Shown: piece by piece, positions 12,676-15,537 of the stretch
How the letters are laid out: each line of letters opens with the position of its first letter
How positions within the stretch are numbered: the stretch's first letter is position 1
Source: Candidatus Hodarchaeota archaeon
GTDB lineage: Archaea > Asgardarchaeota > Heimdallarchaeia > Hodarchaeales > Hodarchaeaceae
Assembly (NCBI GenBank): GCA_016839815.1
Contig: JAEOTM010000159.1
Location: 1 to 45,218, forward strand
DNA: 45,218 nt
Direction of reading: 5' to 3'
Translations under genes and position numbers: made by a program
The notes under the pieces: model-generated
Seen by the model: only the letters and a program-made list of their open reading frames with translations
Told to the model about the DNA's origin: nothing
The model's database searches: none

Positions 12676-14073
12676 TTGGGGAAATATATTAGAAAAATCT
12701 CTCTTCTATTTCTTCTCATAACAATCAATTTCCATTTCTTGAAGGTCGGATCAAATATAAACTCGACCTCTAGCGATTACGAAGGATTAAATCGTACAAA
12801 TCTGACAATCGATATTGCGAAAGTATCTTTCACAATTTTAGAGGAAAGTCGTTATCGGTGCACGTTTAAATTGATAGTATCTGGTAATGAATATACCTCC
12901 CATGGAGAAGCACAAGGTAATTTTAGTTTTCCAACTAATTCTATCAACATGACTTATTTAGATTTCCAGGAAACAGAGATTATTCCTTCGCTAACGTACA
13001 ACAACAATCGAACGTATTGTTATTTTCAGAGTGATTTGATACTACCTGTTGGAGTATCAGAACAATTAAGCGGTAGTTTTGTTGGAAAATGTTATTCTAA
13101 TACTTCAGTTCTATACACATACCATCTAGGAATTGATTGGGGAAGAACTGTTGGAAATCAACTTACTAGTATTGTTTTAGACGGCAGTAAAATGGATCTG
13201 GTTGACTTTAGTGTACCTGAAGGTCAAGAACCACGAACACCTTATACTGAAGGTAATATAGTAATATATAACTGGGAGGATTGGGTGTGTCTTGGATTTA
13301 ACGGCACTTTTATTGTATATAACAAAGTTTCTAACCCAAATCTGTTAAAAATAAGCAAAAATGATTGGAATGTAAGTTTTGATCAGAATGTTATACTTAA
13401 AATACAAAATATTGGCTTGTTTGATGTCGATATAAAGATAAGCACACCAACTTGGATAGATTGTAATGCAACCGAATTTCAACTTGATATTGATGAAACT
13501 CGTACAATTCTATTTACAATTAATTCCAAAGCGACTTTTGGTTTAGTTGATACGATACTTATAATTATCTTAGGTTCCCATTATATATATCCAATCGATG
13601 CTATTGAGATCGAAGTCACTACTGGCAGTGATAAGAACCAAATTGGGGGCCTCCTCTTACTTCTTTTTTCGATTTCTATCATTTTTATTATGATTCCAGC
13701 AATTCTTTATTACCAGAGACCAAAAATCTATCAAATTATAAATCAAATCAAAAAGCAAGTGCCGAGTCAGCATATTGGGGAAAATAAATCAATAATTTCA
13801 GAGATATCTGATGATAAATTTAGTAAAAGTCGTGAGGTAACTTGGGAATCCATACAGCATCGCTGGGAGCCTATTCTTCCCAGTAATGAACTGAAAGTCC
13901 TCAAAATTCTCAATAATTACGGTAGTATGAACCAACAAAGATTGGCGAATCATCTAGGAGTTTCAAAAGTTACAATGTCTAGGTTGATATCACGACTTGA
14001 ATCAAAACGTCTAATTTATCGTGAACGGTTGGGAATGAGTAACATTATTAATCTCAATGAAGAAGTTTTGTGA
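12676..14073 (+). CDS. Single-pass membrane protein with extracellular domain and C-terminal winged HTH (COG2512-like)
   Basis: Signal peptide, about 300-aa ectodomain, TM GGLLLLLFSISIIFIMIPAILYY, then ELKVLKIL...QQRLANHLGVSKVTMSRLISRLESKRLIYRERLGMSN. Confidence 0.85.
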   Translation: MGKYIRKISLLFLLITINFHFLKVGSNINSTSSDYEGLNRTNLTIDIAKVSFTILEESRYRCTFKLIVSGNEYTSHGEAQGNFSFPTNSINMTYLDFQETEIIPSLTYNNNRTYCYFQSDLILPVGVSEQLSGSFVGKCYSNTSVLYTYHLGIDWGRTVGNQLTSIVLDGSKMDLVDFSVPEGQEPRTPYTEGNIVIYNWEDWVCLGFNGTFIVYNKVSNPNLLKISKNDWNVSFDQNVILKIQNIGLFDVDIKISTPTWIDCNATEFQLDIDETRTILFTINSKATFGLVDTILIIILGSHYIYPIDAIEIEVTTGSDKNQIGGLLLLLFSISIIFIMIPAILYYQRPKIYQIINQIKKQVPSQHIGENKSIISEISDDKFSKSREVTWESIQHRWEPILPSNELKVLKILNNYGSMNQQRLANHLGVSKVTMSRLISRLESKRLIYRERLGMSNIINLNEEVL

Positions 14074-14254: not shown

Positions 14255-14324
14255 AAGAATTCTTCAATAAGCAAAATATTTTATGGCTCCTAGAATTTAC
14301 ATAATTTACAGGTGAAAACTACCA

Positions 14325-15149
14325 TTGCCTTTAGGTTTCAGAAAGAAGAAAAAAAAGAAAAAAGACTTACCTACACCCCCTGATTTATCTCGTAAAGTAG
14401 ATAAGAGCTTTCAAAAGGTACTGGGAGAACTTTATGAAACAGTACCAACAAAAAGTTCAGGAATGTCAGGTCCACCGAAAACACCGAAAAAAGTACATCG
14501 ACCGTCTCTTCCAGAACTCCCAGGAGCCCCCAACGAATTTTCACCTCCTCCTTTTGACCAATCTCCCCCCTCAGTGCTTCCTCCTCCTCCATTTCAAGAT
14601 TCCAGAAGACCTTCTAACCAATCAGCAGAATCTGAGGAACCACCCTCACAAATTTTTGGAAATGAAGCAATAACCGACGAAATCCAAGCTGAACTACGTA
14701 GTCGAAGCTTCGGTTCTAGTATCCTTGAAAAAGCTCCTACTACACCCCCTGCACCACGAAAGACAACAGAAGATCTCACACGAATCCATTTTCAAGAATC
14801 CAGACGAGATTACATAGAAGCAGGAAATAAGAATCTTGAGTTGAACTTTCTTGAATATGCAGCAACTAATTATTCCTGTGCCATTCTCTGCGACCTTATT
14901 TCCGTTGGAGTTGACAAAGCGAAGCAAACTTTTTCACAATTAAGCTCGGGAAAACCTTCTGGAGTAGTGGATAATGTAATATTTGAAAATGTTAGATTAT
15001 TAGTTGAAGCTACTCGCTCGAAGAATTTTACTTTCTTAACAAGAGCAGAAAAAGTGATCAGAGCAAATCTCACACAGCTCTACCCCGAAGATGTAGCCAT
15101 AATTGAAAGGGGAATAAAGAGTGCTAAAGCGTATTTCGGACTAGAGTAG
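14325..15149 (+). CDS. Polybasic, proline-rich protein with C-terminal alpha-SNAP-like helical domain
   Basis: TTG start after GGTGA; RKKKKKKK, about 130 aa Pro-rich region, then LNFLEYAATNYSCAILCDL...LTQLYPEDVAIIER resembling the alpha-SNAP C-terminus (from memory of the family). Confidence 0.6.
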   Translation: MPLGFRKKKKKKKDLPTPPDLSRKVDKSFQKVLGELYETVPTKSSGMSGPPKTPKKVHRPSLPELPGAPNEFSPPPFDQSPPSVLPPPPFQDSRRPSNQSAESEEPPSQIFGNEAITDEIQAELRSRSFGSSILEKAPTTPPAPRKTTEDLTRIHFQESRRDYIEAGNKNLELNFLEYAATNYSCAILCDLISVGVDKAKQTFSQLSSGKPSGVVDNVIFENVRLLVEATRSKNFTFLTRAEKVIRANLTQLYPEDVAIIERGIKSAKAYFGLE

Positions 15150-15165
15150 TCAATGGGGAACGGAT

Positions 15166-15537
15166 TCAGAAGTCAAGTTTACTTCCACAATCATGACAAA
15201 AAATCGTATCACCAGAGATTAATGCTCCACAAGTAGAACATACATCATTAGATACTGTTGTTGAACGAATTCGAGTGGTATCAGAAGTAGGAGATCTACG
15301 TTGAGAGATACGCTTGGATAAGAAGCGGCCAGAGTTATTAATATTGCGTCTTCCCATTTGATCTGCATACAATTCTGTATAACCACAAGTAACACAAGTA
15401 AATGCGTGTAAGGTTGCGGTGGATAATCCTGGAAGATCAATTTTTGAATGACTTGCGTCAGCATGAACACGATGGGGACCAGCAATTCTCGTATTCTTAC
15501 ATTTTGGACAAGTTAACGAATTAATCATATTCCTCAC
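15166..15537 (-). CDS. Double zinc-ribbon protein
   Basis: CPKC...CVTCGYTELY plus C-terminal CSTC...FCHDCGSKL. Confidence 0.85.
   Translation of the reverse strand: MRNMINSLTCPKCKNTRIAGPHRVHADASHSKIDLPGLSTATLHAFTCVTCGYTELYADQMGRRNINNSGRFLSKRISQRRSPTSDTTRIRSTTVSNDVCSTCGALISGDTIFCHDCGSKLDF

What the first reader, a model, noticed from the sequence alone, without database searches (positions are those of the whole stretch)
14325..15149. Polybasic + polyproline + alpha-SNAP-like protein: candidate eukaryotic-signature membrane adaptor
Seen: RKKKKKKK at the N-terminus, Pro tracts (LPTPP, FSPPPF, LPPPPF, PTTPPAP), then about 115 helical residues. By eye Y..AG.KNLELNFLEYAATNYSCAILCDL...P...LVEA...LTQLYPEDVAIIER follows the alpha-SNAP/Sec17 C-terminal pattern (NLLKYSAKDY..KA.LC.L...DP.F...L..A...+RLD.W...+L.R, recalled from memory). 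Known: the SNAP C-terminus recruits the NSF AAA ATPase, SNAP-like and SNARE-like proteins are reported in Asgard archaea, and Pro tracts bind profilin/EVH1/SH3/WW domains. Inference: a truncated SNAP whose N-terminal half is replaced by a lipid-binding basic patch and a Pro-rich scaffold, possibly linking membrane, cytoskeleton and an AAA ATPase.
Basis: partly seen in the sequence, partly recalled or inferred. Interest (0 to 1): 0.72.

Follow-up and report, generated by a model that had tools for sequence, protein, structure and literature searches.

The report
Proline-rich Asgard protein with SNAP-fold tail
This Hodarchaeales (Asgard archaeon) gene encodes a conserved, unnamed protein whose folded tail is built like the NSF-binding end of the eukaryotic vesicle-fusion adaptor SNAP/Sec17, while its front half is a lysine-tipped, proline-rich floppy arm; what it does is untested.

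Summary
ORF 14325-15149 (+) is a real gene of 274 aa with a TTG start. It has 43 close homologues, all unnamed, with no Pfam match. Their labels are Hodarchaeales, Hodarchaeota, Heimdallarchaeota or Promethearchaeota.

- An AF2 model of residues 149-274 (pLDDT about 98) has Sec17 as best hit of 48,161 PDB chains: Z 13.5, rmsd 2.8 Å over 115 aa, on Sec17 172-287.
- gamma-SNAP follows at Z 11.6 and Get4 at 10.3. The next row is 8.6.
- Language-model features give SNAP clusters for 21 of 30 nearest named hits.
- Sequence methods (Pfam PF14938, PDB profiles) do not detect it.

The domain belongs to an Asgard-wide family. Thorarchaeota relatives of about 312 aa carry a Cys4 knuckle and TPR-like helices in front of it, and they match SNAP collinearly over their whole length. 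The Hodarchaeales clade replaced that front half with a polybasic tip and a Pro-rich arm. It kept one linear motif, a WH2-like helix.

Function is inferred: a multivalent adaptor. AAA-ATPase, actin and membrane links are all untested, because the one complex job was not folded.

The scan had already flagged the Thorarchaeota form and Hodarchaeales relatives in other genomes. I found no published report in the papers searched.

The parts
14311..14315 (+). Shine-Dalgarno-like GGTGA, 9 nt before the TTG start. It overlaps the in-frame upstream stop TGA at 14313-14315.
   Evidence: Read from the sequence. That it acts as a ribosome-binding site is inferred.
14325..15149 (+). The whole gene: 274 codons plus stop, TTG start. 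It is paralogue A of a family specific to a Hodarchaeales genus.
14325..14390 (+). Conserved N-terminal module, residues 1-22: M-P-x-G-F, then the polybasic run R6-K13 (14340-14363), then LPTPP (14367-14381) and D-L-S.
   Evidence: P2, K9-K11, P18 and P19 are invariant in 29 homologues. The module is kept in paralogue B and in distant members. Membrane binding is inferred only.
14391..14669 (+). Proline-rich disordered arm, residues 23-115, 21.5 % Pro. It includes PPKTPKK, FSPPPF (14538-14555) and the conserved LPPPPF (14577-14594).
   Evidence: Composition is. Length is variable and GPPR/K repeats occur in homologues, while L85, P88 and P89 are conserved. Disorder is inferred from composition and variable length. 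Only residues 105-115 were modelled, and they have low pLDDT.
14670..14735 (+). Conserved amphipathic helix motif, residues 116-137: (D/E)-I-x-A-E-L-R-x-x-x-F-G-S-x-h-x-K. It is WH2-like and homologous to the Thorarchaeota M-Q-A-E-L-K-A-x-x-L-G-G-x-x-L-K-K motif.
   Evidence: I120, E123, L124 and F129 are invariant. E-L is the only invariant pair across both clades. It is a helix of pLDDT about 55-60 that is not docked. Pfam WH2 is sub-threshold in 4 of 58 members.
14736..14768 (+). Short linker, residues 138-148, containing PTTPPAP (14736-14756).
   Evidence: pLDDT is low to moderate.
14769..15146 (+). SNAP/Sec17 C-terminal-bundle-like helical domain, residues 149-274. Conserved motifs are Y-I-E-A-G-N-K-x-L-E-L-N-F, C-A-I-L-C, R-A-E-K and L-Y-P-E-D.
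   Evidence: AF2 pLDDT is about 98. VIA gives Sec17 Z 13.5, rmsd 2.8 Å over 115 aa. Foldseek is and Atlas features.

Best explanation
The gene encodes a soluble adaptor protein of an unnamed family found across Asgard archaea.

The family's defining part is a domain of about 125 aa with seven helices (one of them four residues long). It has the fold of the C-terminal globular bundle of eukaryotic SNAP/Sec17 and is most likely a very distant relative of it. In alpha-SNAP that part binds NSF and stimulates its ATPase.

In Thorarchaeota and some other Asgard lineages this domain follows a Cys4 knuckle and TPR-like hairpins, so the whole protein is collinear with SNAP. In the Hodarchaeales genus of this window the front half was lost. 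In its place are a conserved Lys-rich tip with an LPxPP motif and a variable proline-rich disordered arm. A short amphipathic helix motif just before the domain was kept. The gene then duplicated, and this copy is paralogue A.

Proposed mechanism (inferred, not shown): a multivalent scaffold.
- The basic tip holds it on acidic membrane or another polyanionic surface.
- The proline motifs and the WH2-like helix recruit partners. Profilin and actin are the obvious candidates.
- The folded SNAP-like domain docks on a further protein. The N-domain of a Cdc48-type AAA ATPase is one candidate.

It cannot act as a classical SNAP, because the SNARE-binding half is absent.
For: Shown here:
- The gene is real and conserved. 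There are 43 homologues and only 19 representatives at 50 % identity among 1.8 billion proteins.
- It is present in 21 of 21 other genomes of the genus. Fifteen of the 22 genomes, counting this one, show two copies.
- The fold is SNAP-like. The AF2 model has pLDDT about 98 over residues 149-274. The best of 48,161 PDB chains is Sec17 9cru_G, Z 13.5, rmsd 2.8 Å over 115 aa, model 48-170 on Sec17 172-287. gamma-SNAP scores 11.6, Get4 10.3, and the next row 8.6.
- In Foldseek, only alpha-SNAP and Sec17 rows have probability 0.9-1.0 and TM 0.45-0.54, on a query with 45 disordered residues.
- Independent feature search: 21 of the 30 nearest named Atlas clusters carry PF14938. The best scores 0.93 with 206 of 256 shared features.
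- The family is wider than this clade. The C-domain profile hits 54 of 400 Asgard genomes.
- Thorarchaeota relatives of about 312 aa (at least 224 proteins) share the domain and the helix motif.
- The Thorarchaeota AF2 model gives Sec17, alpha-SNAP and gamma-SNAP as the top 24 Foldseek rows: E 3e-3 to 2e-2, probability 0.99-1.00, 258-318 aligned columns. VIA gives Z 13.7 on Sec17 16-289.
- The front half was lost rather than split off. The Thorarchaeota N-half profile finds no gene in this genome.
- Paralogue B keeps the RsmB-F neighbour that also flanks the Thorarchaeota gene.
- The tree nests clade A inside a Hodarchaeales clade with support 97/96.

From the literature: alpha-SNAP 160-295 binds NSF, and alpha-SNAP lacking up to 160 N-terminal residues still stimulates the NSF ATPase (PMC2139964). 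Profilin of Heimdallarchaeota LC3 binds polyproline weakly, and no natural ligand was established there (PMC8410842).
Against: - No sequence method links the protein to SNAP. Pfam PF14938 does not hit it or 44 relatives at E up to 1. The whole-genome PF14938 scan misses it. Only 3 of 58 family members get a SNAP hit, and those are sub-threshold with best E 0.11. PDB profile searches find no SNAP.
- Helical bundles can reach Z of about 13 by common arrangement alone, according to the tool's own note. Get4 and HAP40 also score.
- The domain's net charge is about 0. By my recollection, not tested here, the NSF-binding surface of SNAP is acidic.
- The hydrophobic end (F-G-L-E, or F-G-Y) is conserved only within clade A.
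- In this protein the LKK(V) part of the WH2-like motif reads I-L-E-K-A.
- There is no operon partner. Neighbours differ between genomes apart from background synteny.
- No binding of any kind was tested.
Confidence: 0.5

Rival explanations
1. Working SNAP analogue. The C-terminal domain docks on the N-domain of one of the genome's Cdc48/NSF-type AAA ATPases and stimulates it. The basic tip brings the ATPase to membranes, for example to act on the genome's tail-anchored SNARE-like protein.
For: - The match is to exactly the part of SNAP that binds NSF and stimulates its ATPase (PMC2139964).
- The genome has four Cdc48-type genes with CDC48_N domains, plus a fifth weak one.
- It also has a 239-aa tail-anchored coiled-coil protein with weak SNARE and synaptobrevin matches, E 0.05 and 0.017. 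This resembles the Heimdallarchaeota prototypic SNAREs (10.1101/810531).
- This protein ends G-L-E, so it has a penultimate Leu like alpha-SNAP L294.
Against: - The SNARE-binding half is missing.
- The domain is neutral rather than acidic.
- The Leu-containing end is not conserved in paralogue B or in the Thorarchaeota form.
- No Cdc48 gene lies nearby.
- None of the ATPases was shown to be NSF-like.
- Earlier follow-ups in this scan on other SNAP-like Asgard proteins found no tie to Cdc48 (unchecked notes).
Confidence: 0.12
2. Actin-assembly adaptor. The proline-rich arm recruits profilin-actin and the helix motif binds an actin monomer like a WH2 motif. The basic tip places this at the membrane, and the SNAP-fold domain serves for localisation or oligomerisation. 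The layout is WASP/VASP-like.
For: - Basic region, then Pro-rich region, then a WH2-like helix is the order found in eukaryotic nucleation and elongation factors (established knowledge).
- The helix motif is the only linear motif kept between the Hodarchaeales and Thorarchaeota forms.
- In the Thorarchaeota form it fits h-x-x-x-h-x-x-G-x-x-L-K-K-(A/V) with WH2 spacing (read).
- Pfam WH2 gives weak hits in 4 of 58 members, best E 0.046.
- The genome encodes an actin about 60 % identical to eukaryotic actins, two ARP-like genes and a profilin-like gene.
- Profilins of Heimdallarchaeota LC3 and of a Thorarchaeota isolate bind polyproline (PMC8410842).
Against: - The WH2 hits are below threshold.
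- In this protein and in many Hodarchaeales members the LKKV part is degenerate (I-L-E-K-A, V-L-K-G-A, Y-L-Q-D-T).
- The invariant Glu-Leu pair is not a WH2 hallmark.
- The profilin-like gene matches Pfam only at E 0.045.
- There is no gene linkage to actin genes.
Confidence: 0.15
3. Fold convergence. The C-terminal domain is a generic TPR-like helical bundle with no common ancestry with SNAP, and the protein has a lineage-specific role unrelated to SNAP biology.
For: - All sequence-based tests fail.
- Identity in the structural alignments is only 13-18 %.
- Helical repeat folds recur, and the tool warns that Z under about 13 can be a common arrangement.
- Weak Pfam noise goes to Vps35, Rif1_N, TPR and MIT as well.
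Against: - SNAP proteins stand 3-5 Z units above the first row that is neither SNAP nor Get4, and they cover the whole domain at rmsd 2.8 Å.
- A sequence-feature search that does not use the structure also points to SNAP.
- The full-length Thorarchaeota relatives match SNAP collinearly in both halves.
Confidence: 0.2
4. Get4-like adaptor. The domain corresponds to the C-terminal half of Get4 and works in tail-anchored protein targeting with an archaeal Get3/ArsA.
For: - For this protein's domain, Get4 chains score Z 10.3 and 8.5.
- For the Thorarchaeota form they score Z 12.4, 11.0 and 10.8.
Against: - Get4 scores below Sec17 in both searches.
- The feature search gives SNAP, not Get4.
- There is no Pfam hit to Get4.
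- By my recollection (not tested here), the Get3-binding part of Get4 is its N-terminal half, which would correspond to the half that is missing here.
Confidence: 0.04

Closest known systems
alpha/beta/gamma-SNAP and yeast Sec17 (Pfam PF14938; PDB 9cru, 1qqe, 2ifu, 9pff)
   Same: - The C-terminal 125 aa superpose on the C-terminal globular bundle, Sec17 172-287, at rmsd 2.8 Å and Z 13.5.
- The nearest language-model clusters are SNAP.
- Thorarchaeota relatives match SNAP collinearly over their whole length.
   Different: - It is not detectable by the SNAP HMM.
- The SNARE-binding twisted sheet of TPR-like hairpins is absent in this protein.
- The domain is neutral rather than acidic.
- A polybasic, Pro-rich disordered arm stands in place of the front half.
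- Family relatives add a Cys4 knuckle and a flexible linker with a WH2-like motif. I know of neither feature in SNAPs (not compared here).
Thorarchaeota 'Cys4 + TPR + SNAP-fold' family
   Same: - The C-terminal domain is homologous, with profile E 1e-5 to 1e-8 per genome.
- The helix motif before it is homologous.
- Paralogue B shares the RsmB-F neighbourhood.
   Different: The Thorarchaeota form has a folded N-terminal half, a 4-Cys beta knuckle plus TPR-like helices. The Hodarchaeales form has a Lys-rich tip, LPxPP and a Pro-rich disordered arm instead.
Get4 (GET pathway pre-targeting complex; PDB 7ru9_C, 3lpz, 9ns5_B) and HAP40
   Same: They share the SNAP-like helical architecture. Z is 10.3 and 8.5 for Get4 and 7.6 for HAP40 on the same residues.
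   Different: Scores are lower than for SNAP. Neither sequence nor feature searches support them.
WASP/WAVE, WIP and Ena/VASP-type actin regulators (basic region, proline-rich region, WH2 or G-actin-binding motif)
   Same: The order of a polybasic stretch, profilin/EVH1-type proline motifs (LPPPPF, FSPPPF) and an amphipathic helix followed by a basic or hydrophobic tail. This is a resemblance of layout only.
   Different: - There is no detectable homology.
- The WH2 match is sub-threshold.
- The LKKV element is degenerate in this protein.
- No Arp2/3-binding CA region or EVH1 domain was noted in the sequence, and Pfam finds no domain at all.

Membership tests
SNAP (PF14938; alpha/beta/gamma-SNAP, Sec17) | Sequence match to the family HMM above its gathering score | tested here: not met
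   - There is no PF14938 hit at E up to 1 for the protein, its C-terminal part or 44 relatives.
- The whole-genome PF14938 scan does not list this locus.
- 3 of 58 wider-family members reach only E 0.11 or worse.
- PDB profile searches find no SNAP.
SNAP (PF14938; alpha/beta/gamma-SNAP, Sec17) | C-terminal globular helical bundle (the part that binds NSF and stimulates its ATPase) | tested here: met
   - The AF2 model has pLDDT about 98.
- Sec17 is the best of 48,161 chains: Z 13.5, rmsd 2.8 Å, 115 aa, on Sec17 172-287. gamma-SNAP scores Z 11.6.
- SNAP rows are the only Foldseek rows with probability above 0.9.
- This is fold-level agreement, on a predicted model.
SNAP (PF14938; alpha/beta/gamma-SNAP, Sec17) | N-terminal twisted sheet of TPR-like helical hairpins that grips the SNARE bundle | tested here: not met
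   - Residues 1-148 are a basic tip, a Pro-rich low-complexity arm and one short helix.
- A TPR-like front half exists only in Thorarchaeota-type relatives.
- No separate gene for it was found in this genome.
SNAP (PF14938; alpha/beta/gamma-SNAP, Sec17) | NSF-stimulating C-terminal end (conserved penultimate Leu, acidic tail and patches) | tested here: inconclusive
   - The protein ends F-G-L-E, with a penultimate Leu.
- Clade A members end F-G-L-x or F-G-Y, while paralogue B and the Thorarchaeota forms end differently.
- The domain's net charge is about 0.
SNAP (PF14938; alpha/beta/gamma-SNAP, Sec17) | Acts together with NSF and SNAREs encoded in the same organism | tested here: inconclusive
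   - The genome has four Cdc48-type ATPases.
- It has one tail-anchored SNARE-like candidate, below Pfam thresholds.
- No NSF orthologue was identified, and there is neither gene linkage nor a binding test.
WH2 motif (PF02205) | Amphipathic helix followed after a short linker by L-K-K-(T/V), binding the barbed-face cleft of actin | tested here: inconclusive
   - PF02205 gives sub-threshold hits in 4 of 58 family members, best E 0.046, and none in this protein.
- The Thorarchaeota motif fits the spacing.
- This protein reads F-G-S-S-I-L-E-K-A.
- Actin binding was not tested.
MIT domain (PF04212) | Three-helix TPR-like bundle matching the MIT HMM | tested here: not met
   - There is no PF04212 hit on the protein. 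The genome scan finds only the Vps4-like gene on another contig.
- The structural match to the Sulfolobus Vps4 MIT domain is Z 6.1 over 67 aa, far below SNAP.
- The domain has seven helices (one of four residues), not three.
Get4 (GET pathway) | SNAP-like alpha-solenoid whose N-terminal half binds Get3 and whose C-terminal half binds Get5 | tested here: inconclusive
   - Get4 chains score Z 10.3 and 8.5 on the same residues, below Sec17.
- Pfam shows no Get4 family among the hits.
- The feature search gives SNAP.

The most novel reading that the evidence does not exclude
The Asgard family defined by this domain is the archaeal sister or ancestor of eukaryotic SNAP. On this reading its C-terminal bundle already docked on the N-domain of a Cdc48/NSF-type AAA ATPase before eukaryotes arose. 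The Hodarchaeales lineage, often placed closest to eukaryotes, then rewired the adaptor. It exchanged the TPR half for a membrane-binding basic tip and a profilin/actin-recruiting arm, physically coupling an AAA ATPase, the membrane and the actin cytoskeleton.
Probability: 0.1. Interest if true: 0.9.

Novelty: new variant of a known kind. Interest (0 to 1): 0.6.

Why it matters
To my knowledge the origin of the NSF-SNAP-SNARE fusion machinery is unresolved. In the papers I searched, SNARE-like proteins have been reported in Heimdallarchaeota (10.1101/810531), but I found no SNAP counterpart.

This family is conserved across several Asgard lineages and invisible to Pfam. Its C-terminal domain reproduces the NSF-activating bundle of SNAP, and its Thorarchaeota members are collinear with SNAP end to end. 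That makes it a concrete and cheap candidate for testing whether a SNAP-like AAA adaptor predates eukaryotes.

The Hodarchaeales variant adds a second question. It is a natural Asgard protein that combines a polybasic tip, profilin/EVH1-type proline motifs and a WH2-like helix. These are the kind of ligands that the polyproline-binding Asgard profilins would need, and that paper named candidate polyproline proteins without establishing a ligand (PMC8410842).

If neither link holds, it remains an ordinary lineage-specific scaffold with a recycled helical fold.

Tried and rejected
1. MIT-domain idea. I raised it from G-N-x-x-x-A and R-A-E-K patterns and rejected it. There is no PF04212 hit, and the structural match to Vps4 MIT is Z 6.1 against 13.5 for Sec17.
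2. Complex prediction of the genome's actin (alignment A6) with the WH2-like fragment, residues 100-152 (alignment A5). It gives no verdict and no evidence either way. It used the only job, so the Cdc48 N-domain and profilin tests could not be run.
4. Sequence and profile searches of the PDB with the protein and with alignments A2, A3 and A4 found only designed proteins and noise.
5. The ESM Atlas structure search gave nothing useful; TM was at most 0.44.
6. I looked for a bridging sequence with PF14938 in 151 Asgard genomes. Many TPR-type proteins hit, but only over HMM positions up to about 250, and never at this family's loci. The own-genome hits are long TPR proteins.
7. Operon context. 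In two other genomes the gene keeps the convergent carbamoyltransferase and carbamate kinase pair, with a different gene in between each time: a zinc ribbon here, a deaminase, and a PAS kinase. I read this as background synteny. The Thorarchaeota loci are uninformative.
8. Split-gene idea. The Thorarchaeota N-terminal half profile finds no separate gene in this genome. The only hit is E 0.016 inside a 1323-aa frame, and the genome is 89.5 % complete.
9. MIM1- and MIM2-type readings of the helix and of LPxPP were compared by eye with recalled consensus patterns. The spacing does not fit MIM1. MIM2 was not testable.
Full report
**The observation**

The window has about 35 % G+C. ORF 14325..15149 (+) is the only long frame at this place, and the ORFs overlapping it in other frames and on the other strand are at most 79 aa. 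It starts with TTG, the first possible start after an in-frame TGA, and GGTGA lies 9 nt upstream.

A search of 5.8 billion proteins found 43 homologues. All are 'hypothetical' and none has a Pfam domain. The named ones are labelled Hodarchaeales, Hodarchaeota, Heimdallarchaeota or Promethearchaeota, and the closest are 76-85 % identical. Their alignment begins M-P-x-G-x-F-K(n)-x-L-P-x-P-P, which confirms the TTG start.

Four blocks are conserved:
- the N-terminal 22 residues;
- an L-P-P-P-P core within a proline-rich stretch of variable length;
- a short helix motif, (D/E)-I-x-A-E-L-R-x-x-x-F-G-S;
- the last 125 residues or so.

An exhaustive phmmer scan of 1.8 billion representatives with the C-terminal part found only 19 clusters. 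The more distant ones keep the same layout: M-S-P-L-x-R-x-K-K, then D-L-P-x-P-P-S-L, then R-P-P-F-P-E, then D-I-L-x-E-L-R-x-x-G-F-G-S, then the domain. The features are real and are under selection.

**The C-terminal domain**

Pfam finds nothing in the protein, in its C-terminal part or in 44 relatives. PDB sequence and profile searches find nothing relevant.

An AF2 model of residues 105-274, built on a 44-sequence alignment, is very confident over residues 149-274. pLDDT is about 98, and there are seven helices, one of them four residues long.

An exhaustive structural comparison with 48,161 PDB chains gives these top rows:

| Chain | Protein | Z | Notes |
|---|---|---|---|
| 9cru_G | Sec17 | 13.5 | rmsd 2.8 Å, 115 of 123 residues, model 48-170 on Sec17 172-287 |
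| 2ifu_A | gamma-SNAP | 11.6 | |
| 7ru9_C | Get4 | 10.3 | |
| 8amz_P | chain of the spinach 19S proteasome entry | 8.6 | rmsd 6.6 Å |

Rows lower down include a second Get4 chain (8.5), chains from TREX-2 complex entries (8.4 and below) and HAP40 (7.6).

Foldseek E-values are weak, 0.3 to 1. However, the only rows with probability above 0.9 and TM 0.45-0.54 are alpha-SNAP and Sec17.

A search that does not use the structure agrees. With ESM features for residues 148-274, 21 of the 30 nearest named clusters are SNAP (PF14938). The best scores 0.93 with 206 of 256 shared features.

The preference is there, and it falls on the C-terminal bundle as proposed.

Barnard et al. showed that alpha-SNAP 160-295 binds NSF. 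They also showed that deleting up to 160 N-terminal residues leaves ATPase stimulation largely intact, and that the last 10 residues and Leu294 are needed for stimulation (PMC2139964).

My own alternative, an MIT domain, was rejected. The match to Vps4 MIT is only Z 6.1, and there is no PF04212 hit.

**The wider family**

A profile of the domain (A3) was searched in 400 Asgard genomes and hit 54.
- It hit all 21 other genomes of the window's genus. Fifteen of the 22 genomes, counting this one, show two copies.
- It also hit more distant proteins in other families, with E from 1e-14 to 1e-4.

I fetched twelve of these loci. The Thorarchaeota type is about 312 aa, with at least 224 proteins, all 'hypothetical' and without Pfam domains. 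Its layout is:
- an N-terminal module with four invariant Cys;
- TPR-like helices;
- the motif M-Q-A-E-L-K-A-x-x-L-G-G-x-x-L-K-K;
- a disordered linker;
- the same C-terminal domain.

Other forms exist as well:
- Intermediates carry the Cys module plus a proline tract (P0063, P0064).
- Short forms of 165-190 aa occur in MAGs labelled Baldrarchaeia, Odinarchaeota and Heimdallarchaeota.

The AF2 model of a Thorarchaeota member has pLDDT 82.8 and pTM 0.55, with a flexible hinge. Its top 24 Foldseek rows are all Sec17, alpha-SNAP or gamma-SNAP, with E 2.7e-3 to 2e-2, probability 0.99-1.00 and 258-318 aligned columns. VIA gives Sec17 Z 13.7 over model 8-313 on chain 16-289. The rmsd is high because the hinge angle differs. 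The nearest named feature clusters are again SNAP-type, at 0.87-0.88, which counts as a lead only.

So the family as a whole is collinear with SNAP. The Hodarchaeales proteins are a derived form in which the front half was exchanged.

Three results support exchange rather than a gene split:
- The Thorarchaeota N-half profile finds no gene in this genome.
- A tree of the domain puts clade A, which includes this protein, as one branch (97/96). It sits inside a Hodarchaeales clade (96/96) together with a grade of B-type sequences. The Thorarchaeota and other forms lie on the other side (99/98).
- Paralogue B (P0061, contig 47) lies two genes from an RsmB-F methyltransferase gene. The same family flanks the Thorarchaeota gene, which suggests that B holds the ancestral locus.

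**What is not SNAP-like**

- No HMM-based method links the family to PF14938. Only 3 of 58 members reach E 0.11 or worse.
- PF14938 does hit many other Asgard TPR proteins, but only over its N-terminal two thirds or so, and never at these loci.
- This protein lacks the SNARE-binding half altogether.
- Its domain has net charge about 0.
- Its hydrophobic end (F-G-L-E here) is conserved only in clade A.
- The VIA tool itself warns that helical bundles can reach Z of about 13 without homology.

I therefore call it a SNAP-fold domain that is probably a remote relative, not a member of the SNAP family.

**How it may work**

Nothing was shown beyond sequence and predicted structure. The conserved parts suggest a multivalent adaptor:
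- a Lys-rich tip with flanking hydrophobic residues, for acidic membrane or another polyanion;
- proline motifs of the profilin/EVH1/SH3 ligand type;
- an undocked amphipathic helix;
- a folded protein-docking domain.

The helix motif is the only linear element shared by the Hodarchaeales and Thorarchaeota forms. In the Thorarchaeota form it fits the WH2 spacing, and Pfam WH2 gives weak hits in 4 of 58 members. In this protein the L-K-K-V part is degenerate.

The genome encodes the following candidate partners:
- an actin about 60 % identical to eukaryotic actins, two ARP-like genes and a weak profilin-like gene;
- four Cdc48-type ATPases;
- a tail-anchored SNARE-like candidate below Pfam thresholds.

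Profilins of Heimdallarchaeota LC3 and of a Thorarchaeota isolate bind polyproline weakly. That paper names candidate polyproline proteins but does not establish a natural ligand (PMC8410842).

My single complex-prediction job paired actin with the WH2-like fragment. It was not folded for policy reasons and gives no verdict.

Gene context gives no operon partner for this copy.

**Novelty and verdict**

I found no SNAP homologue reported for Asgard archaea in any of these:
- the SNARE paper (10.1101/810531);
- the main text of the 2026 structure-based survey (PMC12962969);
- the main text of the 2026 structural-clustering preprint.

The supplements of the structure-based survey were not held.

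This scan had already noted the Thorarchaeota form as a 'SNAP-fold protein with WH2-like motif'. It also holds first-reader notes on Hodarchaeales relatives in two other genomes. Those are unchecked AI notes, and I reproduced the fold result independently here.

I rate this a new variant of a known kind: a SNAP-fold domain in a new architecture. Interest is moderate to high because of its bearing on the origin of the SNAP/NSF module and of proline-motif and actin regulation. It is tempered by the complete lack of functional evidence.

Noticed in passing
G000 contig 47, locus L045:5419-6720: Paralogue B of this family (L045:6007-6720, minus strand, 237 aa) abuts an Arf-family small GTPase gene tail-to-tail with no gap (L045:5419-6006, PF00025 E 3e-48). 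The same convergent pair is present in all five other genomes of the genus that I checked. The genomes are kin, so this may be plain synteny, but it is a lead for a membrane-traffic link.
   Followed up: partly
G000 contig 100, locus L040:1492-2211 (-): A 239-aa tail-anchored coiled-coil protein has weak matches to both the SNARE model (E 0.05, covering 3-53 of 53 positions) and the synaptobrevin model (E 0.017). It resembles the 'prototypic SNAREs' described for Heimdallarchaeota.
   Followed up: partly
window 14340-14363: The lysine run is encoded by an A-rich tract, AGA AAG AAG AAA AAA AAG AAA AAA, which contains a run of eight A. Homologues vary in the number of Lys. Such tracts are prone to slippage in replication, sequencing and possibly translation.
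   Followed up: no
window 15166-15537 (-): The convergent downstream gene encodes a 123-aa protein with two zinc-ribbon units (DZR, Zn_ribbon_13). In two other genomes this slot holds a cytidine deaminase or a PAS histidine kinase instead, so it is a variable position between conserved flanks.
   Followed up: partly
window 12676-14073 (+): The upstream gene encodes a 465-aa protein that ends in a MarR/DUF7343 winged-helix domain (residues 402-460). By eye it also has an N-terminal hydrophobic segment and a membrane-spanning stretch. That would be an unusual membrane-tethered transcription-regulator layout.
   Followed up: no
Thorarchaeota relatives, e.g. L031:1093-2031 (-), residues 1-45 of P0060: The N-terminal module has four invariant Cys (C7, C19, C35, C44) and is predicted as a small beta knuckle in front of the TPR-like helices. 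It is probably a zinc-binding cap, and no family matched it.
   Followed up: partly
G000 contigs 149, 6, 33, 147 (loci L016-L019) and contig 101 (L020): The genome carries four full-length Cdc48-type ATPase genes, in open frames of 739-768 aa, plus a gene in a 438-aa open frame with a weak CDC48_N match. That seems a large set for an archaeon. I did not examine which of them, if any, is NSF-like.
   Followed up: no
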